Below are positions 17,779 through 41,753 of a DNA stretch of 49,559 nt, one piece after another. Origin of the DNA: a virus. Taxonomy: Duplodnaviria > Heunggongvirae > Uroviricota > Caudoviricetes. A model generated the notes under the pieces. That model saw only the letters and a program-made list of their open reading frames with translations, searched no databases and had not been told where the DNA came from. The position numbers and the translations under genes are program-made. The stretch spans positions 1 to 49,559 of IMG/VR virus record IMGVR_UViG_2563366953_000002. One strand, 5' to 3'. Within the stretch, counting starts at the first letter, position 1. Every line of letters begins with the position of its first letter.

Positions 17779-17854
<76 letters not shown>

Positions 17855-17857
17855 TAT

Positions 17858-17932
<75 letters not shown>

Positions 17933-31736: not shown

Positions 31737-32667
31737 GGAATTAGCCGAACAGCACAGTTCGCAGCTCTCGTCCGTTCTTAAATCCGCAGTTGAAACCATC
31801 TCGTCAGACCAGGAAATCACGTTCAGGCTCTATGTCCGGCAGGTTCTGCCGCTGGATGGCTTTGTCTATTGGGTTAATGCGGAAATCATCAGTTGCGATG
31901 AACTGTGTCGCCTGAATATTGAGTCACCAACTCGTCTGAAAATCAAAGGCAGCCTGCATCGTCAGGTTATTGCGATTCAGGACGAGTCTGTCTCGAAGGA
32001 TGTGAACAACATTATTTTCACGCCTGTTCAGCAGGTTGATGATTTTAATGTGGAAAATCCCGATGCGATCTATCTCGGTGAGTACGGAGGCGTCCAGTTC
32101 GCTTTTTCACGAATGGAGAGCCGTTATCAGCAGTCGGGTATTTTTCATTATCGCGGCATGGCGATTTTACCAACCATGCGTTCTCAGATTATCGACTGCG
32201 AGAAGGATATCAGCGACGAGCAGATCATCTCCAACAGCATCCCGATCTGGCTGCAAATGAAAGATGCCGCGACCGTGTATCCGTCTTACCTGGTACCGCA
32301 GAACCTTCGCCCTCCGTATATCGCGGTGGATGTTCGCAACAGTATTCCGTTGCAGGTGGCTCCCGTTGTTTTCGGCGGTGAGCGGTTCCAGCTAGTCCAG
32401 GATTCGGTTCGCCTGACGCTTTACGGATTCAGCAACAAAATGGCGCTGGATCTTGTCGACTCGGTGGTGAACAGGGCGCTGGAGGAGGAAAAGTTTGGTG
32501 TAACCAATATTCCGGTGGTTCAGGACGCAAAGTCGGGACAGGTTGAAATCAACGCTCTGGCGAAGAAAAAGATTGTCGATTTTGACGTGAATTACTACCA
32601 GAGCACCGCCCGGGAAATGTCCCGGCAGTTGATTGAAAAAGTTATTTGTAAATATGAGGTTAAATAA
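31723..32667 (+). CDS. hypothetical virion protein
   Basis: 314-aa ORF upstream of the sheath-like gene, translationally coupled to its neighbours. Confidence 0.3.
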   Translation: MPSLEELAEQHSSQLSSVLKSAVETISSDQEITFRLYVRQVLPLDGFVYWVNAEIISCDELCRLNIESPTRLKIKGSLHRQVIAIQDESVSKDVNNIIFTPVQQVDDFNVENPDAIYLGEYGGVQFAFSRMESRYQQSGIFHYRGMAILPTMRSQIIDCEKDISDEQIISNSIPIWLQMKDAATVYPSYLVPQNLRPPYIAVDVRNSIPLQVAPVVFGGERFQLVQDSVRLTLYGFSNKMALDLVDSVVNRALEEEKFGVTNIPVVQDAKSGQVEINALAKKKIVDFDVNYYQSTAREMSRQLIEKVICKYEVK

Positions 32668-34004
32668 TGGGATTTAATATCGTCACGGTGAATGTGTCCC
32701 AGACCATCGGGGCCATTCCCTCGAATTTGCAGCAGATGTCTGCGGTTCTCTCGTTTGGTTCCACGACTCATGAGCTGGGAAAACCTGTATTACTCACCCG
32801 TAATCAGGATATTAACGAACTGGTTAAAAATCCGATTGCTGGCTTGTCGGCGGCTGCCGCAGGAAGATCTGCGGCAAGCGTCACCGTTACGATGACGCTT
32901 CCGGAAGGGAGCAACATCCGACGCGAAAACAGTTCTGAGGTGAAAATTGTTGTTTCCGGGTGTTCGCCCGACGCGTGGAATGGCGAATATACTGCTACCG
33001 TCACGGATGAAAAAACACTGACCTGGACTATTACTGATTCTCAGCTTTCCGGTTCTCCAGTGACGCTGGGGCAGTTTTCCATTGCTGGCAGTGAAAATCT
33101 GGTGACGGCAGTAAACACGTTTTTTGCCCAGGGAAATTCAGTGGGGATTTACCTGCTGGAGCTGGGAGTACAGAAAGGCGGAGTCAGTAAGGAAATCGCT
33201 GCGCTGAAATCTTATATGGAAGATCCGCTCCAGCGTTTTTACGCTTATCTGGTACCGCAGACGTGGGATGGCGACGCGGAGTTTATCAGTCTGGCAAAAC
33301 TCCACACCGCCAACGAAGCGATGCAGTATTTCTTCGTGCTGACGAAAACGCCGGATGACACGAATTACGTTTCGCCTTATGCCGGTATTAAGTCAGTTAT
33401 TGCAACGGCGGATGATACGTACCCGGCGACAAACGCGGCAGCAGCCGTAATGTGGAACTATGTTTCCGCATCACCTTCAGAAATCAACAAGGTGCCGCCG
33501 ATGGCATTTCGCTATCTACAGGCGGTAAACGCCCACAAGGGCAAAAATTCCATTCTGGCTACGATGACGAAGCAGAATATTAACTACGTCGAAACGGGGG
33601 CTGAGGGCGGAATCTCCAACACGATTCTGGTGAAAGGCGTTACCAGTGACGGTAACGATATGACGTACTGGTATTCCGTGGACTGGGTGCAGATTAATGT
33701 CGATATGCAGCTCGCCAACACGGTTATCAACGGCAGCAATAACCCAATTAACCCGCTTTACTACAACCAGGACGGGATCGACCGTCTACAGCAGGTCGCA
33801 CAGGCGGTGTTCAATACGGGCGTATCTTACGGCCTGGTCAACGGTCAGCCTGTCGTCGATGCAGTGCCTTTCCGTCAGTATATCAACACTAATCCGAATG
33901 ATTACGGTATCGGGCGTTATGCAGGCCTTTCGGCCTCCTATACGCCGATGCGCGGATTTGTCGAAATCATTTTTAACATCAATGTGACAATGCAGCTTTC
34001 GTGA
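32667..34004 (+). CDS. putative tail sheath protein
   Basis: 445-aa ORF after GAGG, followed by a 147-aa tube-like gene, a frameshifting chaperone and a tape measure (contractile-tail order). Confidence 0.5.
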   Translation: MGFNIVTVNVSQTIGAIPSNLQQMSAVLSFGSTTHELGKPVLLTRNQDINELVKNPIAGLSAAAAGRSAASVTVTMTLPEGSNIRRENSSEVKIVVSGCSPDAWNGEYTATVTDEKTLTWTITDSQLSGSPVTLGQFSIAGSENLVTAVNTFFAQGNSVGIYLLELGVQKGGVSKEIAALKSYMEDPLQRFYAYLVPQTWDGDAEFISLAKLHTANEAMQYFFVLTKTPDDTNYVSPYAGIKSVIATADDTYPATNAAAAVMWNYVSASPSEINKVPPMAFRYLQAVNAHKGKNSILATMTKQNINYVETGAEGGISNTILVKGVTSDGNDMTYWYSVDWVQINVDMQLANTVINGSNNPINPLYYNQDGIDRLQQVAQAVFNTGVSYGLVNGQPVVDAVPFRQYINTNPNDYGIGRYAGLSASYTPMRGFVEIIFNINVTMQLS

Positions 34005-34015
34005 GGGACTGAACC

Positions 34016-34459
34016 GTGCCTAATCCAATGATCCCCGTTGGCACCCTTAACCGGGTTCGCGCCAGCGTTAAATTCACCTCTCATTCCGAACTGAATGTGT
34101 CCGCCTCATTTCTGGCAAAAGAAGGCGTCGAATTGTCCTTTCAGGGCAATATCACGGAGTTTTTACCCGCTATGACGGGAGCCGTGCAGTCGCCGCAGCC
34201 ATACATGATTTTACAGGCGCGTGTTCATCTGCTGCGTAGCCAGGCGCTGGGAAAACAATTCAAGGCGCAATGGGAAAAAAACGCCACGATCGGCGACGCA
34301 AAAGTGTATAGCGACAGCACGGTGTTCGGTGACTTCGATATCTATAACACAGCGATTACCAACGTGCAGGATATGACCTTCGCCGGGGGGGAGCCGGGTG
34401 TGGCCATCACCATTACCGGTACGTATTACATCAATTCTGAAATGTGGGATCTGGTATGA
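34016..34459 (+). CDS. putative tail tube protein
   Basis: 147 aa, GTG start after GAGGGA; stop overlaps the chaperone ATG. Confidence 0.45.
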   Translation: MPNPMIPVGTLNRVRASVKFTSHSELNVSASFLAKEGVELSFQGNITEFLPAMTGAVQSPQPYMILQARVHLLRSQALGKQFKAQWEKNATIGDAKVYSDSTVFGDFDIYNTAITNVQDMTFAGGEPGVAITITGTYYINSEMWDLV

Positions 34460-35073
34460 AAATCTCCCGAAATCTGAATCTGATTATTCCTGTCCGGACA
34501 GAAAAGGGTAATGGCTGGATCCATGCCACGCCGATCAGCAAAGAGGTGTTTAAAGAGCATTTCTTCATCCTGAGTAAAACCTTTTCTGCCATTTTTTCTG
34601 AAGGTCTTGGCGTCGTTGCGGGTCCGCGTATCGCCTGCCTTATGCTGGAACGGATCTCCTCAGATATGAACATCTGGGATGGCGAAAAGGGCGTTCGTAA
34701 TACGCTCGTGAATGAAATCATTCGCCTTGCGAATCTGGTTTACCCAGTCGAAGGGAAAGGTTATGACACGCTCCCGCTTGATATGGCGCTGGAGCGCGGC
34801 ATCGTTGAATTTGATGATGTGGCAGGTGAACTCGTTTTTTTTACATGCGTCTCGTCGATAAACACACCGGAGCAGACGGAGCAGATGATGCTGGCAGTCA
34901 GTGGAATGTGGAACAGTCGCACTTCATCCTTGAGTCTTACGGAATGGATTGCTTCATTGCCGACATTGAAGCCTGTCGCCAGTTCTGGCGCGACGGCGAG
35001 CACGTTATCAGCGACATCCTCGACTACTCAGCCGGAGACGGATTCAGCGACATCTGGGCAAATTCCGGTCTGA
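34456..35073 (+). CDS. tail assembly chaperone (zero-frame product)
   Basis: ATG at 34456 overlaps the tube stop; lies between the tube and tape-measure genes; contains a T8 slippery tract at 34835-34842. Confidence 0.55.
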   Translation: MKISRNLNLIIPVRTEKGNGWIHATPISKEVFKEHFFILSKTFSAIFSEGLGVVAGPRIACLMLERISSDMNIWDGEKGVRNTLVNEIIRLANLVYPVEGKGYDTLPLDMALERGIVEFDDVAGELVFFTCVSSINTPEQTEQMMLAVSGMWNSRTSSLSLTEWIASLPTLKPVASSGATASTLSATSSTTQPETDSATSGQIPV

Positions 35074-35147
35074 ATGTAAAAACAGCAGCTCAGTTTCGTG
35101 AGCTGCGTAAATGCACGACGCCGGGAGGTGTATTGAATGTCAGGTAA
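34456..35147 (+). CDS. tail assembly chaperone, predicted -1 frameshift-extended isoform
   Basis: The -1 frame is open from the T8 tract (34835-34842) to a stop at 35147, which overlaps the tape-measure start; this matches the conserved G/GT-type chaperone frameshift arrangement. Confidence 0.45.
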
Positions 35148-37125
35148 TCAGATGCCAGTTCTGACACTGGACGTTAATGAAGAACATCTTAAGCGACTTG
35201 AGGCGATATTTGAAAAGTATCGCAACGGGCTGATGATTGGCCCTGCCGGTACGCCGCTTAAAATACCTTCAAATACAGGTCCGGCAGGTGGCGCCCGGCA
35301 GACAACCACAGGCGGAGAAGCCAATCAGGCTCCCAGGAAACCATCTTCACCCGAGCCAGTTTCGGCTGCTTCCACTGATGGACGTTTAAGGGATGAAAAA
35401 GGGCGCTTTGTTGGAAGCGGGAAAACACCTGATTCGCTGGTGAGCAACTATAAAGGTCGCGGCGAAACGATGTTTGATAAGTACCTCAACGGGCTGGGTA
35501 AAAACGCTCAGGGAACGCTGAAAACTTACAAACAGATCAATTCAACGCTTAAAACGACTAATTCCCGGTTAAAAAGCCTGTTTAAAACCACGGTTTCGTG
35601 GGGGGCGAAAATAGCTGCAATAGGGGTTGCGGGGCCGTTTGGCTACGGCTATATGGCGAGTAAAGTCGCAGCACAGTATAGCGTGGCTCAGGGGTTAGGG
35701 ATGGAAACCGCCCAAATGCAGGCCGCACGTGCCACCTATTCACCATATTTTTCTGGCACAGAAGAACTGGTTCAGCATCTGGCGAACGCACAGAAAAATC
35801 CAAACGATCCAAACTATGCTGGTCTGGTTAGTCTTGGAATTGATCCGCGAGATGGTGCAGCAAAGAATCTGCCCAAACTTATGAGTGCGCTTGCATCTCT
35901 AGTTAAGCAATATAAAGGTTCAGGACTTACTCAGGGGATTCTCAACGGACAAGGACTTGGATTTGTTGATGTCGCGACAACTAACCAGGTGGAAGCGAAT
36001 CTGGACAAGATCCCCCAACTGAATGAGAAATTTGCAGCAAATACCCGGTTACTCGGCGCTTACCTCACGCCAGCTATGCAGTCAGGTTATCAGGACACGG
36101 TGAGTAACCTGATGGTAAATGGAAACAGAATATCAAATTCCTGGTATGCAGCTCTTGCCAGATATAACCCATTAATCAGAGGTGCATCTGATGGGCTGAC
36201 ATCCAATATTGAAGGTTTTCTGAATGGTGGAAATTTTAAACAAATTCTCACTGAGGCTGGAGAAGGGCTGGAGAAACTTGGTAAGTGGCTAAATAGTGAA
36301 CAGTTTAAAAATGATCTTGATGATTTTTCTCTGGCGGTGAGCCGTATTGCAAAAGCAATATGGTCAGCTATCAAATGGATCGGCGGGGAAGATAAATATC
36401 TCCCCGGAACCGGAGTTGGTGCTGAACAGGCAGATCCAGTTCTTGTGGCATTTGGGGATAAATATCTCGGCGGTGCGTTGCCGGGAGCAAACCCGATGAC
36501 AAATCAGTATACGGGTGAGTTTTATAAACAGGATGATGTATATAAAAATTACCGTATGCCTAATGATTTAAAGAGAAATATTCAGAACTTTGTAGAGCAA
36601 GCCAATAATACTTATCGACTTCCTAAAAATATGATGTCTGCAATTGCAGAAGCCGAATCATCGTGGAATCCCCTAGCGAAAGGAAGCCCCGATGAAAATG
36701 GCAATTATGCTAAGGGGTTGTGGCAATTCTGGGATAGCACCGCAAAACAGTATGGTCTGGTGGGAGATGATGTTTATGATCCAAATAAATCCACTCTTGC
36801 GGCTGGCCGCTTTTTAAATGATCTGAATCGGCGTTATAAAGGCGATGTGGCAAAAATGCTTACGGCATATAACGGAGGTCGTATTGATAGAGATGGAAAT
36901 CTAAGTTTGAGAATGGAGACTGTAAAATATTTAATTAAATTATTGCCTCAGATACAGGGAGCCTTGGATCAACACCCTGGTATTATGAATCAGCTAAGAA
37001 ATGCCAAAGATAACCTTCAGGGTGCTGGCAAAAATGCCCGCGCAATAATTGAGCTTCAGGTGCGACAATCGCCAGGTTCCGACATACTGGCACAACTCGC
37101 CGGAACGCAACAAATACCGGGGTAA
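35137..37125 (+). CDS. tail tape-measure protein with lytic-transglycosylase-like domain
   Basis: 662 aa; C-terminal region has SLT-like motifs (..AEAESSWNPLAKGSPDENGNYAKGLWQFWDSTAKQYGL..); position after the frameshifting chaperone. Confidence 0.6.
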   Translation: MSGNQMPVLTLDVNEEHLKRLEAIFEKYRNGLMIGPAGTPLKIPSNTGPAGGARQTTTGGEANQAPRKPSSPEPVSAASTDGRLRDEKGRFVGSGKTPDSLVSNYKGRGETMFDKYLNGLGKNAQGTLKTYKQINSTLKTTNSRLKSLFKTTVSWGAKIAAIGVAGPFGYGYMASKVAAQYSVAQGLGMETAQMQAARATYSPYFSGTEELVQHLANAQKNPNDPNYAGLVSLGIDPRDGAAKNLPKLMSALASLVKQYKGSGLTQGILNGQGLGFVDVATTNQVEANLDKIPQLNEKFAANTRLLGAYLTPAMQSGYQDTVSNLMVNGNRISNSWYAALARYNPLIRGASDGLTSNIEGFLNGGNFKQILTEAGEGLEKLGKWLNSEQFKNDLDDFSLAVSRIAKAIWSAIKWIGGEDKYLPGTGVGAEQADPVLVAFGDKYLGGALPGANPMTNQYTGEFYKQDDVYKNYRMPNDLKRNIQNFVEQANNTYRLPKNMMSAIAEAESSWNPLAKGSPDENGNYAKGLWQFWDSTAKQYGLVGDDVYDPNKSTLAAGRFLNDLNRRYKGDVAKMLTAYNGGRIDRDGNLSLRMETVKYLIKLLPQIQGALDQHPGIMNQLRNAKDNLQGAGKNARAIIELQVRQSPGSDILAQLAGTQQIPG

Positions 37126-39780: not shown

Positions 39781-39813
39781 TACCGGCTCACTTTAAATTA
39801 CATCCATAAAGCG

Positions 39814-39850
39814 AAAGCCCCGGCTGCTGCAACAGTTCGGGGCTTTTTGT
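39814..39850 (+). terminator. intrinsic terminator (copy 2 of the repeated hairpin)
   Basis: GCCCCGgctgctgcaacagttCGGGGC followed by TTTTT; nearly identical in stem and loop to the element at about 20000. Coordinates approximate. Confidence 0.5.
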
Positions 39851-39995
39851 ATCAACAGAACAGTATTTGAAATGGCATGGAGATTACTCATGCAGCCAAA
39901 TTCTAGCGCACCTAAAGATAAATTTGGAGACGATTTGATGATTAAGGCTGAGACCACTCCGCAAGGAGCAATAAGGCTGCGAGGATAATCGCGGT

Positions 39996-40202
39996 ATGCC
40001 GAGGGATTCGTCACATACTTACGCCTGTTGCCTGGATCACTTGTACTGCATTAGTGGCGGGTACATTGATTTACCTGAAAAACTGATAAAGGAGTTACGA
40101 GAAATGGGCGAAAGATTACCCAACTGGAAATTCCTGTTGATATGGTGTGTGTTTTTCTTATTTGGACTATCCGCTTTGATTCAGGCGATCCGGTGGCGGT
40201 AA
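39996..40202 (+). CDS. small C-terminally hydrophobic protein, copy 1
   Basis: 68-aa ORF; an internal ATG near 40103 is preceded by AAAGGAG; C-terminus ..LIKELREMGERLPNWKFLLIWCVFFLFGLSALIQAIRWR is one TM helix. Confidence 0.35.
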   Translation: MPRDSSHTYACCLDHLYCISGGYIDLPEKLIKELREMGERLPNWKFLLIWCVFFLFGLSALIQAIRWR

Positions 40203-40321
40203 TTTTTACATAACTTTACATATGGCAATGAAAAAACAACAAATTACTTCATGGATGATTTGCTACGTGAACTCAAGCATAGAATGACATGGTGTTAAGT
40301 AATTGTTACAAAGGGATTGGT

Positions 40322-40468
40322 ATGAAGTTTCTTTTCATTGTTTATAAATTACTAGTTGAGATTCGAGTTATGGGCGAGAAATTTCCCAATTGGAAGTTTT
40401 TACTTATCTGGTTGGTCTTTCTGATTCTGGCGTCTGGATATTTTGTTGGGCAGATCCGATGGTGGTGA
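40322..40468 (+). CDS. small C-terminally hydrophobic protein, copy 2 (paralog of copy 1)
   Basis: Hand-translated 48-aa ORF (AAGGGA upstream): MKFLFIVYKLLVEIRVMGEKFPNWKFLLIWLVFLILASGYFVGQIRWW; conserved with copy 1 over about 40 residues. Confidence 0.35.
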   Translation: MKFLFIVYKLLVEIRVMGEKFPNWKFLLIWLVFLILASGYFVGQIRWW

Positions 40469-40475
40469 GGGCACG

Positions 40476-40823
40476 ATGAGGACATGGGGCCGCGTCACCG
40501 ACGTGAACGGCAATAAAAAATGGGTTGCTGTAGAATCTGACGCCAACGGTGATTTCTCCTACGGCTGGCTGACGACGCTCATTCAGACGTTAAAGCTGGG
40601 GGTGGGGGAGTCGCCGTTTTACGCGAATTACGGCATTCCAGCACAGCAGTGCATCGTGCAGCAGATTTACCCGGACTACTATGTGAACATGGTTCAGCAA
40701 CAGTTTGCCGGGTATTTTGCATCACTGGCAATTTCAAGGGTAGATGGGGCTGAGAACCCCACCTATAACATCGATGTTGTGTTTTTTAATGGGACCAGTT
40801 ACCGGATGCAGGTTCCGGTGTGA
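40476..40823 (+). CDS. putative baseplate protein
   Basis: ORF track start is TTG at 40443; ATG at 40476 follows GGTGAGG; 115 aa; lies between the spike-like and J-like genes. Confidence 0.35.
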
Positions 40824-41173
40824 GGCAAATTTTCGGGCATCAGTTGGGCCAGTGGCGTGTTAAGAAGTTCATCGCGTGGCATGACAATCCATCCACTTTT
40901 GCGTAGTAAGTGAATTGCCCATTCTGTGGTGATAACTGAGCCTGATTTGTGGTGCTCAATGTGGGTAACCGAGCCGTTTCTGACGCGCATGATGATGTCA
41001 ACATTCAGAGGGGATTGTGTGCTGGTGGTATCTTCGCGCAGCTTCTTCTCGCACTCGATGAAGTATCGGCGGATCTGGCGTCCTTTTTCGTTGCGCTCGA
41101 CCATTGCCAGTTCTTTGGCGGTGTCCAGGGTGAGGTGGTAGTCCTTGCGGCGGCGGCCTGGAGTTTTCGCCAA
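40799..41173 (-). pseudogene. antirepressor C-terminal-domain fragment lacking a proper start
   Basis: Frame opens with TTG directly after an in-frame stop, with no ATG or SD. The product (..[35 protein letters not shown]..) resembles the C-terminal domain of phage antirepressors, which normally follows an N-terminal domain. Confidence 0.45.
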
Positions 41174-41185
41174 ATTTGGCGAAAA
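41164..41185. repeat. perfect 22-bp palindrome TTTTCGCCAAATTTGGCGAAAA
   Basis: Read directly from the sequence; overlaps the 5' end of the antirepressor fragment at the border of AT-rich DNA; no flanking U-tract. Confidence 0.6.
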
Positions 41186-41213
41186 TAGAATGTAGTCTAA
41201 AAAAGTCTAACAA

Positions 41214-41753
41214 CTACTTATTTTCAGACACACATTTTTCAAAATTTTTTATCGAGTCATTGAAAACTGAATTCATTATCTCATAAGTTTTATGATCTAT
41301 CTTTTTGTCTAGATAATCTTTATTGTTTTTCTTTATTTTTTCCTTAGTATCAGTAATGGCTTTTTTACAAATTTGATAATTTATCTGCTGATCGTTTAAA
41401 CCGCCTCCATTGACAATTAGAGAAATAGCTGTATTCATGTCTTGTATATTGTAGGAATAGTGTAATGTGTCATTGGTTGGATGGCTGGGATTATCATAAT
41501 AAACATTACCGAATTTCATTAACATTATTCCCGATTTCCCATAAACAGAATCAGATAAGTATGCGGCATTCATATTTCCGGCAGTAAAATTATCAGTATG
41601 ACATATAAAACGCCGACCATATTGAAGCTGTAATTTATGCATAGCATCGTTGCAGGCAGCTCTTATTAGACGGGTATGATTATTGTCTTCTTCTTAAGCG
41701 CATACTGAAAATGAAAGAGTGGATGCAATTAGCAATGAAATTAATTTCTTCAT
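41214..41753 (-). pseudogene. AT-rich secreted-protein gene interrupted by one in-frame TAA after the signal peptide
   Basis: Hand translation: ATG at 41753 gives MKKLISLLIASTLSFSVCA, then TAA (41694-41696), then the same frame continues EEDNNHTRLIRAACNDA-MHKLQ... through the 142-aa ORF 41214-41642; four Cys in the mature part. Confidence 0.45.

What the first reader, a model, noticed from the sequence alone, without database searches (positions are those of the whole stretch)
34835..35147. Programmed -1 frameshift signature in the tail assembly chaperone
Inside the chaperone gene a T8 run (34835-34842) is read GTT-TTT-TTT-ACA in the zero frame. The -1 frame is open from that point (..TTT-TTT-TAC-ATG-CGT..) for about 100 codons and stops at 35147, overlapping the tape-measure start. 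A slippery heptamer plus a downstream extension ending at the tape-measure gene is the conserved chaperone arrangement in tailed phages.
Basis: partly seen in the sequence, partly recalled or inferred. Interest (0 to 1): 0.4.

Follow-up and report, generated by a model that had tools for sequence, protein, structure and literature searches.

The report
Unannotated tail-chaperone frameshift site, mid-gene
An E. coli prophage gene between the tail tube and tape-measure genes has a run of T's, conserved across its whole family, where some ribosomes most likely slip back one base to make a second, longer protein; this is a well-known phage trick, but it is unannotated here and sits unusually far from the end of the gene.

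Summary
T8 lies at 34835-34842 and reads GTT TTT TTT ACA in the 205-codon gene 34456-35073. The -1 frame opens at 34830 and runs to TAA at 35145-35147, 11 nt into the SLT-domain tape-measure-like gene (ATG 35137).

- In 110 distinct homologous genes (about 30-100% aa identity), 101 keep TTT TTT. The preceding codon ends in T in 103, across five amino acids (background 27%).
- In all 79 distant loci scored, the -1 frame stays open for 96-124 codons and ends at the next large ORF. Its peptide is conserved.
- The ATG after the site is present in only 53 of 112, so a separate start is unlikely.
- No record or family library examined annotates the frameshift.

Two features are unusual. The slip is 228 nt before the zero-frame stop (typical chaperone genes: about 26 nt). 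It also falls inside a helix of the predicted fold, so the two products share 129 residues and then carry different conserved C-termini encoded by a 231-nt dual-coding stretch.

No stimulatory RNA structure was found. Transcriptional slippage cannot be excluded. The chaperone role rests on gene order only.

Verdict: a new member of a known kind; moderate interest.

The parts
34456..35073 (+). Zero-frame gene ('G', 205 aa). Its ATG overlaps the stop of the upstream tube-position gene (ATGA). Annotated as hypothetical protein in every record examined.
   Evidence: It matches phrog_11810 (unknown function) at E 2e-84, and has no Pfam or NCBIfam match. There are 704 clusters at 50% identity with E<=1e-3, typically 185-200 aa and aligning over residues 1 to about 183. 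The AF2 model has pLDDT 87.7 and folds residues 1-170 as one domain.
34836..34842 (+). In-phase slippery heptamer T_TTT_TTT, part of the T8 run 34835-34842. P- and A-site tRNA-Phe can both re-pair perfectly in the -1 frame. It is followed by A, so the first -1 codon is TAC (Tyr).
   Evidence: It is invariant in 46 distinct close sequences. TTT TTT is present in 101 of 110 distinct genes, against 54% TTT at other Phe codons. The preceding codon ends in T in 103 of 110 (GTT, ATT, TGT, GCT, ACT), against a background of 27%. The next codon is A[CT]N in 109 of 110.
34842..35147 (+). -1 frame extension ('T', 101 codons plus TAA). Fused to residues 1-129 of G it gives a predicted 230-aa GT protein (MKIS...GELVFF|YMRLVDK...GVLNVR).
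   Evidence: It matches phrog_14324 (unknown function) at E 4.5e-62 from the ATG at 34845. The -1 frame is open for 96-124 codons from the homologous site in all 79 distant loci scored, and ends within a few tens of bases of the start of the next large ORF in nearly all. The conserved motif is LYG..F.ADID..R..WRDG....LDW...EGF...EFRQRHL. pN/pS is 0.38-0.42 in 34933-35070 and 0.16 in 35073-35096.
34843..35073 (+). Dual-coding overlap of 231 nt. Constraint is mainly on the zero frame in 34846-34932, on both frames in about 34903-34992, and mainly on the -1 frame in 34993-35070, where the zero frame encodes a Ser/Thr-rich variable tail.
   Evidence: Third-position entropy drops from 0.96 upstream to 0.42 in the overlap. 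Zero-frame pS falls from 0.50 to 0.13. Family-wide conserved residues interleave: zero frame W152, S167, L168; -1 frame Y33, G34, D41, R46.
34825..34830 (+). Shine-Dalgarno-like AGGTGA, 5 nt upstream of the heptamer. It is a possible modulator of slippage; its status is unresolved.
   Evidence: Read directly from the sequence. It is not conserved among close relatives (GGCGAA, GGCAGC). SD-like strings are enriched at -4 to -6 and -12 to -16 across the family, but this is confounded by a conserved E-V-E/G peptide motif.
34016..34459 (+). Upstream neighbour, the presumed tail tube gene (147 aa), assigned by its position after the sheath gene.
   Evidence: phrog_6566, unknown function. The sheath gene 32667-34004 matches phrog_205 'tail sheath' at E 6e-52.
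35137..37125 (+). Downstream neighbour: a 662-aa tape-measure-like protein with a C-terminal SLT lytic transglycosylase domain. Its start overlaps the end of the -1 ORF by 11 nt.
   Evidence: Pfam SLT PF01464 at E 1.7e-20, residues 486-583. phrog_7694. The homologous gene in Pantoea phage PdC23 is annotated 'tail length tape measure protein'.

Best explanation
Gene 34456-35073 and the overlapping -1 ORF ending at 35147 form a G/GT-type pair expressed from one start codon. Most ribosomes read straight through and make the 205-aa G protein. A minority, with tRNA-Phe in both the P and A sites on T_TTT_TTT (34836-34842), slip back one base. They then read TAC ATG CGT... and terminate at 35145-35147, giving a 230-aa GT protein. 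GT shares residues 1-129 with G and carries a different, conserved 101-residue C-terminal module. By position (sheath, tube, this gene, tape measure), the pair most likely acts as the tail assembly chaperone, with the two products made at a fixed ratio. Shown here: the sequence features, their family-wide conservation, and purifying selection on both frames. Inferred: that slippage happens and is ribosomal, the ratio of products, and the chaperone function.
For: (1) Anatomy. There is an in-phase heptamer; the -1 frame opens 2 codons upstream of it after four closely spaced stops; and it closes 11 nt into the next gene. (2) Selection on the nucleotides. Among 110 distinct genes, 101 have TTT TTT (other Phe codons in the same genes are 54% TTT). 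The preceding codon ends in T in 103, whether it encodes V, I, C, A or T (27% T elsewhere). Among 46 close sequences the 14-mer GTTTTTTTTACATG never varies, although 97% of upstream third positions do. (3) The -1 ORF is open for 96-124 codons in all 79 distant loci scored and ends at the next 500-800-aa ORF. The +1 frame closes within about 30 codons in nearly all of them. (4) The -1 peptide is a conserved protein under purifying selection. (5) There is no conserved independent start. The codon after Tyr is ATG in 53 of 112 and otherwise TGT, CTG, TGC, AGC and others; 47 of 112 have no ATG before the conserved YG motif. In the window the ATG is preceded by the T-run, with AGGTGA 14 nt away. 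Gene callers almost never call the ORF: 17 clusters against 427 hits for the query containing G. (6) Synteny places it between the tube-position gene and the tape-measure-like gene, in phages that include electron-microscopy-confirmed myoviruses (PMC9224151). (7) Precedent. Myovirus P2 makes E and E+E' by a -1 shift on TTTTTTG without a downstream hairpin (PMC3091744). Lambda makes G and GT (PMC5009743).
Against: There is no experimental evidence for the fusion protein. U_UUU_UUU was reported as much less shifty than A_AAA_AAG in E. coli test constructs (PMC5009743). No stimulatory RNA structure was found. The downstream 90 nt fold worse than shuffles (z +1.8). The RNAalifold consensus energy is -2.55 kcal/mol. 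The family-wide downstream MFE z is only -0.5. There is no Rfam hit. The protein matches no described chaperone family by sequence or fold, with only weak BFVD hits, some of them named chaperone. The slip site lies 228 nt from the zero-frame stop, unlike typical chaperone genes. FF is also conserved as protein, inside a predicted helix, so part of the conservation is at the amino-acid level. About 8% of family members lack the heptamer (TAT TTT, TCT TTT, TTT TTC).
Confidence: 0.85

Rival explanations
1. Transcriptional slippage. RNA polymerase stutters on the T8 tract and adds one U to a fraction of transcripts. Ordinary translation of those mRNAs then gives the same GT protein. This could act alone or alongside ribosomal slippage.
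For: The site is a homopolymer of 8, and 78 of 110 family members have T8 rather than T7 (GTT or ATT before TTT TTT). The run length is unstable at the DNA level: a T9 allele that encodes GT as one ORF occurs in at least three independent assemblies. No ribosomal stimulator was found. The protein product would be identical, so the sequence cannot exclude this.
Against: 25 of 110 genes make do with T7 (TGT, GCT or ACT before TTT TTT), and none has a longer run as the normal state. From general knowledge, efficient bacterial slippage sites usually have 9 or more A/T. The pattern that is conserved is exactly the in-phase X_XXY_YYZ, including the third base of the preceding codon. The characterised chaperone cases (lambda, P2) are described as translational.
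Confidence: 0.1
2. Two separate genes. The ORF from ATG 34845 to 35147 is translated on its own as a 100-aa protein, as PHROGs and a few gene calls treat it, and the T-run is incidental.
For: An ATG lies 3 nt after the T-run in the window. phrog_14324 models it as a 97-aa family. Seventeen database proteins start there or nearby.
Against: There is no Shine-Dalgarno at a workable distance: AGGTGA ends 14 nt upstream, is not conserved, and the intervening bases are the T-run. ATG is absent at that position in 59 of 112 distinct relatives, and 47 have no ATG at all before the conserved part of the peptide. This model does not explain the T at the third position of the preceding codon, nor why the -1 frame usually opens only a few codons upstream of the heptamer.
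Confidence: 0.04
3. There is no recoding. The -1 ORF is a by-product of composition or a decaying gene, or T8 is an assembly error for T9 and the true gene is a single 230-codon ORF.
For: T9 versions exist. Some database 'fusion' proteins exist (P0001-P0004).
Against: T8 (or T7) is found in more than 100 distinct sequences, including complete E. coli genomes and isolated phages. P0002-P0004 shift frame at different, scattered points, as expected of indel errors. The zero-frame sequence after the site is conserved family-wide (W152, S167, L168) and folds confidently with the rest. The -1 frame shows pN/pS of 0.16-0.42, against 1.2-1.8 for the +1 frame.
Confidence: 0.01

Closest known systems
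Bacteriophage P2 gpE / gpE+E' (myovirus tail assembly chaperone pair; Christie et al. 2002, as summarised in PMC3091744)
   Same: Contractile-tail phage. The gene pair sits between the tube and tape-measure genes. A -1 shift occurs on a T-run heptamer (P2: T_TTT_TTG; here: T_TTT_TTT). No downstream hairpin is present. Two products share an N-terminus.
   Different: No detectable sequence or family relationship (no Pfam, NCBIfam or PDB match). P2 E is 91 aa and E+E' 142 aa; here the products are 205 and 230 aa. Here the zero frame continues for 76 codons past the slip and that part is conserved.
Bacteriophage lambda gpG / gpGT and the conserved frameshift of dsDNA phage tail assembly genes (Levin et al. 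1993; Xu, Hendrix, Duda 2004, 2013, 2014; reviewed in PMC5009743)
   Same: The position before the tape-measure gene, the -1 shift, an extension that ends at the tape-measure start, and no requirement for an RNA structure. The likely logic is also shared: a fixed low ratio of long to short product, a shared part that binds the tape measure, and an extension that recruits the tube protein. The last point is inference here.
   Different: [quoted passage not shown] Here the shift lies at residue 129 of 205, inside predicted helix 119-135, so GT lacks the last 40 or so structured residues of G. Mean distance from slip to zero-frame stop in annotated SEA-PHAGES chaperones is 26 nt (PMC10885494); here it is 228 nt.
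E. coli dnaX tau/gamma -1 frameshift
   Same: A -1 tandem slippage on a homopolymeric heptamer in E. coli. There is possibly an upstream SD-like element (AGGTGA at 34825-34830; enrichment).
   Different: dnaX uses A_AAA_AAG with a strong downstream hairpin and an SD 10 nt upstream, and is highly efficient (general knowledge). Here no hairpin was found, and the SD-like string is 5 nt away and not conserved.
PHROGs families phrog_11810 and phrog_14324
   Same: The two window ORFs are full-length members (E 2e-84 and 4.5e-62).
   Different: Both families are labelled 'unknown function' and are treated as unrelated separate genes. The evidence here links them as the two parts of one recoded gene.

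Membership tests
G/GT-type programmed frameshift of tail assembly chaperone genes (Xu, Hendrix, Duda 2004) | Located between the major tail (tube) gene and the tape-measure gene | tested here: met
   The order is sheath (phrog_205), a 147-aa tube-position gene, this gene, then a 662-aa SLT-domain gene. The homologous downstream gene is annotated as tape measure in PdC23. The same order holds in the relatives examined.
G/GT-type programmed frameshift of tail assembly chaperone genes (Xu, Hendrix, Duda 2004) | Second ORF in the -1 (or another shifted) frame that overlaps the first, extends to about the tape-measure start, and lacks its own conserved start signal | tested here: met
   The -1 frame is open from 34830 to 35147. 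It is open for 96-124 codons in all 79 distant loci scored and ends at the next large ORF. ATG is present in only 53 of 112, and no conserved SD was found.
G/GT-type programmed frameshift of tail assembly chaperone genes (Xu, Hendrix, Duda 2004) | Slippery sequence, in phase, inside the overlap and conserved among relatives | tested here: met
   T_TTT_TTT at 34836-34842. 101 of 110 genes have TTT TTT, and 103 of 110 have T at the preceding third position.
G/GT-type programmed frameshift of tail assembly chaperone genes (Xu, Hendrix, Duda 2004) | Slip site close to the 3' end of the upstream ORF, so that GT contains essentially all of G | tested here: not met
   The slip follows codon 129 of 205, 228 nt before the stop. 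The zero-frame remainder is conserved and structured. Typical distance is 26 nt (PMC10885494). This is a usual feature rather than a strict definition.
G/GT-type programmed frameshift of tail assembly chaperone genes (Xu, Hendrix, Duda 2004) | Both products are made at a fixed ratio, are required for tail assembly, and are absent from virions | not testable with these tools
   This needs protein detection and genetics in an induced lysogen.
Described tail assembly chaperone protein families (Pfam Phage_TAC families, P2 gpE-like, solved chaperone structures) | Sequence or fold similarity to a described chaperone family | tested here: not met
Transcriptional slippage sites | Homopolymeric A/T run long enough for frequent polymerase stuttering (usually 9 or more), with phase irrelevant | tested here: inconclusive
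   The window has T8. The family has T8 in 78 and T7 in 25 of 110, always in the ribosomal phase. T9 alleles exist at the DNA level. The contribution of slippage at the RNA level cannot be measured here.
-1 frameshift sites with cis stimulators (dnaX-like) | Downstream hairpin or pseudoknot, or an upstream SD-like element at a stimulatory distance | tested here: not met
   Downstream fold z is +1.8 and +1.6. RNAalifold gives -2.55 kcal/mol with no covariation support. Family-wide z is -0.5. No Rfam hit. The upstream SD-like enrichment exists but is confounded by the peptide motif, so that part is inconclusive.

The most novel reading that the evidence does not exclude
This is a large, so far undescribed family of tail-chaperone-position genes: 704 clusters at 50% identity, found in E. 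coli, Salmonella and Citrobacter prophages, in Klebsiella, Yersinia, Pantoea and Shewanella phages, and in many environmental viral contigs. In it the programmed -1 shift does not append a domain to a complete G protein. It switches between two alternative C-terminal modules part-way through the fold. G would finish its own domain (helices to about residue 170, then a Ser/Thr-rich tail ending in a conserved [IV]P[STV]). GT would drop those elements and carry a different conserved domain. The two modules are encoded by a dual-coding stretch of about 230 nt that has been maintained across the family, with roughly 27 codons constrained in both frames. If so, the shared 'G part binds the tape measure' model of lambda may not carry over unchanged. 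The family would also be a clean natural system for studying long-term evolution of overlapping frames.
Probability: 0.5. Interest if true: 0.55.

Novelty: new member of a known kind. Interest (0 to 1): 0.4.

Why it matters
On the practical side, the gene is labelled 'hypothetical protein' in every record examined (RefSeq E. coli, phages Rac-SA53, vB_Apl-pPE4, PdC23). The -1 ORF is left unannotated, and in PHROGs the two halves sit in two 'unknown function' families. The same correction (one joined CDS with ribosomal slippage at T_TTT_TTT) would apply to hundreds of prophages and phages. Current predictors probably miss it because they expect the slip near the zero-frame stop: PRFect recovered only 2 of 43 test cases with a distance above 51 nt.

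On the biological side, the mid-fold position of the slip and the long, doubly constrained overlap are an unusual form of a classic recoding event. They offer a test of which part of a G/GT pair is really needed in both products.

Tried and rejected
- **Known RNA elements:** an Rfam scan of 34400-35300 at E <= 1 found nothing.
- **Downstream stimulatory structure:** single-sequence folds, RNAalifold on 12 relatives and a family-wide MFE comparison gave no support.
- **T-run as an intrinsic terminator tail or promoter element:** no + strand terminator-like or promoter-like site lies at the run.
- **afdb50 fold search:** the library was unavailable.
- **Structure of the fusion protein:**
  - A second alignment gave a confident N-part (residues 1-138), but pLDDT was below 50 for the -1 module because few homologues could be supplied. 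The fold of the T module is therefore unresolved.
- **Distant loci search:** the search with the broad alignment A1 failed because no stretch was conserved enough. A narrower alignment worked.
- **Genome-contig scan:** the single-protein query returned only one locus.
- **'Fused' database proteins P0001-P0004:** these looked at first like natural fusions. P0002-P0004 change frame at scattered positions and are best read as indel errors. Only P0001 (the T9 allele) is at the slip site.
- **Literature:** searches on Rac-SA53, vB_Kpn_Chronis, PdC23 and the Yersinia vB_YenM phages found no mention of a frameshift or chaperone.

Full report
**1. The observation**

The window holds a T8 run at 34835-34842. 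It lies in a 205-codon gene whose ATG at 34456 overlaps the stop of the upstream gene (ATGA) and whose stop is TGA at 35071-35073.
- In that frame the run reads GTT TTT TTT ACA (V-F-F-T).
- The only in-phase X_XXY_YYZ heptamer is T_TTT_TTT at 34836-34842.
- The -1 frame has stops at 34806, 34812, 34815 and 34827, then none until TAA at 35145-35147.
- After a -1 slip the ribosome would read TAC ATG CGT ... for 101 codons.
- It would stop 11 nt inside the next gene, whose ATG is at 35137.

A T8 run is not rare in this window: there are six T8 runs, one A8 and one C8. The case therefore rests on conservation.

**2. Context**

The window is an E. coli prophage.
- It is 100% identical over this stretch to strain SC418 and 99% identical to E. 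coli W.
- The stretch is present in 93 of 5,426 complete genomes.
- It is 96% identical to phage Rac-SA53.

The gene order is sheath (32667-34004, phrog_205, E 6e-52), a 147-aa tube-position gene, this gene, then a 662-aa protein with a C-terminal SLT lytic transglycosylase domain (PF01464, E 1.7e-20). Further downstream lies a baseplate hub (phrog_196). The homologue of the 662-aa gene in Pantoea phage PdC23 is annotated as the tape measure.

In RefSeq, Rac-SA53, vB_Apl-pPE4 and PdC23 the gene is 'hypothetical protein' and the -1 ORF is not annotated. PHROGs places the two ORFs in two separate families of unknown function, phrog_11810 and phrog_14324. Pfam and NCBIfam do not match either ORF.

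**3. Close relatives**

I examined 63 loci from viral contigs plus one genome locus, at 55-100% protein identity.

All carry T8 followed by ACATG at the same position, apart from two loci with T9. The flanking bases vary.

In 46 distinct sequences, 97% of third codon positions in the 378 nt upstream of the site are variable (mean entropy 0.96). Yet GTTTTTTTTACATG never changes.

Past the site, zero-frame third-position entropy drops to 0.42. The periodicity gradually changes to that of the -1 frame.

A Nei-Gojobori count gives the following:

| Region | Zero-frame pN/pS | -1 frame pN/pS | +1 frame pN/pS | Zero-frame pS |
|---|---|---|---|---|
| N-terminal part (34459-34833) | 0.18 | 1.98 | 1.88 | 0.50 |
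| 34846-34932 | 0.61 | 0.78 | 1.20 | 0.30 |
| 34933-34992 | 0.75 | 0.38 | 1.79 | 0.135 |
| 34993-35070 | 0.96 | 0.42 | 1.18 | 0.131 |
| 35073-35096 | n/a | 0.16 | n/a | n/a |

The -1 frame is therefore a real coding frame, and synonymous change in the zero frame is suppressed where the two frames overlap.

**4. Distant relatives**

An exhaustive HMMER search found 704 clusters at 50% identity with E <= 1e-3. They are mostly 185-200 aa and align over residues 1 to about 183 of the window protein.

Their alignment shows F128-F129 nearly invariant within the motif (V/I/C/A/T)FF(T/I). It also shows a conserved zero-frame continuation (W152, S167, L168).

DNA for 80 distant viral loci (33-56% identity to one family representative, P0127) was fetched. 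The results follow.

- **Heptamer.** Over all 110 distinct genes (close and distant), 101 have TTT TTT. Other Phe codons in the same genes are TTT only 54% of the time.
- **Preceding codon.** It is GTT, ATT, TGT, GCT or ACT, that is, it ends in T, in 103 of 110. Other V, I, A, C and T codons end in T 27% of the time.
- **Following codon.** It is A[CT]N in 109 of 110. The first -1 codon is therefore TAY (Tyr) and never a stop.
- **Reading frames.** In all 79 distant loci scored, the -1 frame is open for 96-124 codons from the site. It ends within a few tens of bases of the start of the next 500-800-aa ORF in nearly all.
  - The +1 frame closes within about 30 codons in nearly all of them.
  - The -1 frame usually opens only 4-14 codons upstream of the site.
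- **The -1 peptides are homologous.** An invariant Tyr is followed by about 28 variable residues. Then comes LYG(V/I)..F.ADID..R..(Y/F)WR(D/E)G....LDW...EGF...(E/D)FRQRHL.

The third-position T of a codon that encodes five different amino acids is the signature of selection on X_XXY_YYZ itself, not on the protein.

**5. Against an independent start**

- The ATG that follows the site in the window is present in only 53 of 112 distinct relatives. Elsewhere the codon is TGT, CTG, TGC, AGC and others.
- 47 of 112 have no ATG at all before the conserved YG motif.
- In the window the nearest SD-like string (AGGTGA) ends 14 nt before the ATG and is not conserved.
- A profile search with the -1 peptides found only 17 database proteins. 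The fusion query containing G found 427. Gene callers therefore almost never see this ORF as a gene.

**6. What is unusual**

The slip is after codon 129 of 205, which is 228 nt before the zero-frame stop.
- The mean distance in annotated SEA-PHAGES chaperone genes is 26 nt.
- The predictor PRFect recovered only 2 of 43 cases with a distance above 51 nt (PMC10885494).

An AlphaFold model of G, built from a 26-sequence alignment, has mean pLDDT 87.7. It folds residues 1-170 as one domain and places F128-F129 inside helix 119-135. GT would therefore lack helix 138-152, strand 155-157 and helix 161-167 of G, and would carry the T module in their place.

Family-wide conservation maps as follows.
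- The zero frame is the better conserved frame up to about 34930.
- Both frames are conserved between about 34903 and 34992. In the zero frame the conserved residues are W, SS, TE, SL, T and G. In the -1 frame they are YG, F, D, R and WR.
- Beyond that the -1 frame dominates, while the zero frame encodes a variable Ser/Thr-rich tail.

**7. Mechanism**

Tandem -1 slippage of two tRNA-Phe on U_UUU_UUU allows perfect re-pairing.

P2, also a myovirus, uses TTTTTTG for E and E+E' and has no downstream hairpin (PMC3091744).

No stimulatory structure was found here.
- The downstream 90 nt fold worse than shuffles (z +1.8), and a 191-nt stretch gives z +1.6.
- RNAalifold on 12 relatives gives -2.55 kcal/mol.
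- The family-wide downstream MFE z is -0.5.
- There is no Rfam match.

SD-like strings are enriched 4-6 and 12-16 nt upstream of the heptamer. They coincide with a conserved E-V-E/G peptide motif, so this is inconclusive.

Transcriptional slippage on the T-run would give the same protein and cannot be excluded. Three points weigh against it as the main route. A quarter of the family has only T7. The conserved pattern is the ribosomal phase. The characterised precedents are translational.

I put -1 recoding of G into GT, by whichever route, at about 0.85. A mainly transcriptional route is a rival at about 0.1.

**8. Function**

'Tail assembly chaperone' is inferred from gene order and from the recoding itself. 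No sequence or fold match to a described chaperone was obtained.
- A PDB profile search returned nothing.
- Foldseek against PDB gave nothing.
- BFVD gave one uncharacterised hit at E 2e-4 and only weak hits to proteins named chaperone.

The fusion model was confident only for residues 1-138, so the T module fold is unknown.

**9. Literature**

Full-text searches for Rac-SA53, vB_Kpn_Chronis, PdC23 and the Yersinia vB_YenM phages found no mention of a frameshift or chaperone in this group. The Yersinia relatives are myoviruses by electron microscopy (PMC9224151).

**10. Verdict**

In kind it is the classic G/GT recoding, so it is a new, unannotated member of a known kind.

Its mid-fold slip site and long, doubly constrained overlap are a noteworthy departure that deserves an experiment. 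Interest is moderate, at 0.4.

Noticed in passing
L061:2880-2888; L148 and L149 (about 1880-1888); protein P0001: A T9 allele of the slip site (GGTGAGCTCA T9 ACATG) encodes GT as a single 227-codon ORF. It occurs in an IMG/VR contig and in Logan assemblies of at least two different sequencing runs (ERR200279, SRR18964995; six contigs in all). It therefore looks like a real lineage allele rather than a random read error. Such prophages would make GT only, unless slippage restores G.
   Followed up: partly
L095, L098, L108, L113, L126, L131, L144, L146 (about 380-390 nt into the gene); also L105, L112: A minority subclade has TAT TTT A (Y-F) instead of TTT TTT A, leaving only a T_TTT tetramer in phase, yet keeps the full -1 ORF. 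L131 and L126 carry a canonical T_TTA_AAG or T_TTA_AAA heptamer about 9 codons downstream, which suggests the slip site has moved.
   Followed up: partly
window 35137-37125: The tape-measure-position protein (662 aa) carries a C-terminal SLT lytic transglycosylase domain (residues 486-583). Records annotate it only as 'transglycosylase SLT domain-containing protein', not as a tape measure.
   Followed up: partly
window 35059-35070 (last residues of G) and homologues in alignment A1: After a variable Ser/Thr/Pro-rich tail, most G homologues end in a short conserved motif ([SL][IV]P[STVH]). This may be a terminal docking peptide that GT lacks.
   Followed up: no
phage records PP818812.1; OK094664.1 and OP650936.1: 'Actinobacillus phage vB_Apl-pPE4' is about 90% identical in DNA to this E. 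coli prophage over the 1.4-kb stretch compared, an odd host assignment. 'Shewanella phage vB_Sb_QDWS' and 'Hujiaoplasma phage zrk29-1' have the same record length (47,902) and identical match statistics, so they may be one genome deposited under two hosts.
   Followed up: no
window 34276-34282: The tube-position gene contains an in-phase A_AAA_AAC heptamer (GAA AAA AAC), plus a G7 run at 34385-34391. The -1 frame there closes about 10 codons later (stop at 34309), so no extended product is expected.
   Followed up: partly
window 17779-17932: Two adjacent tRNA genes, Thr(TGT) and Gly(TCC), lie inside the prophage, upstream of the late genes.
   Followed up: no
window 39793-41642: The run of + strand tail and baseplate genes is interrupted after 39780 by a stretch of about 1.9 kb containing short ORFs, several on the minus strand. 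This may be an inserted cargo ('moron') region.
   Followed up: no
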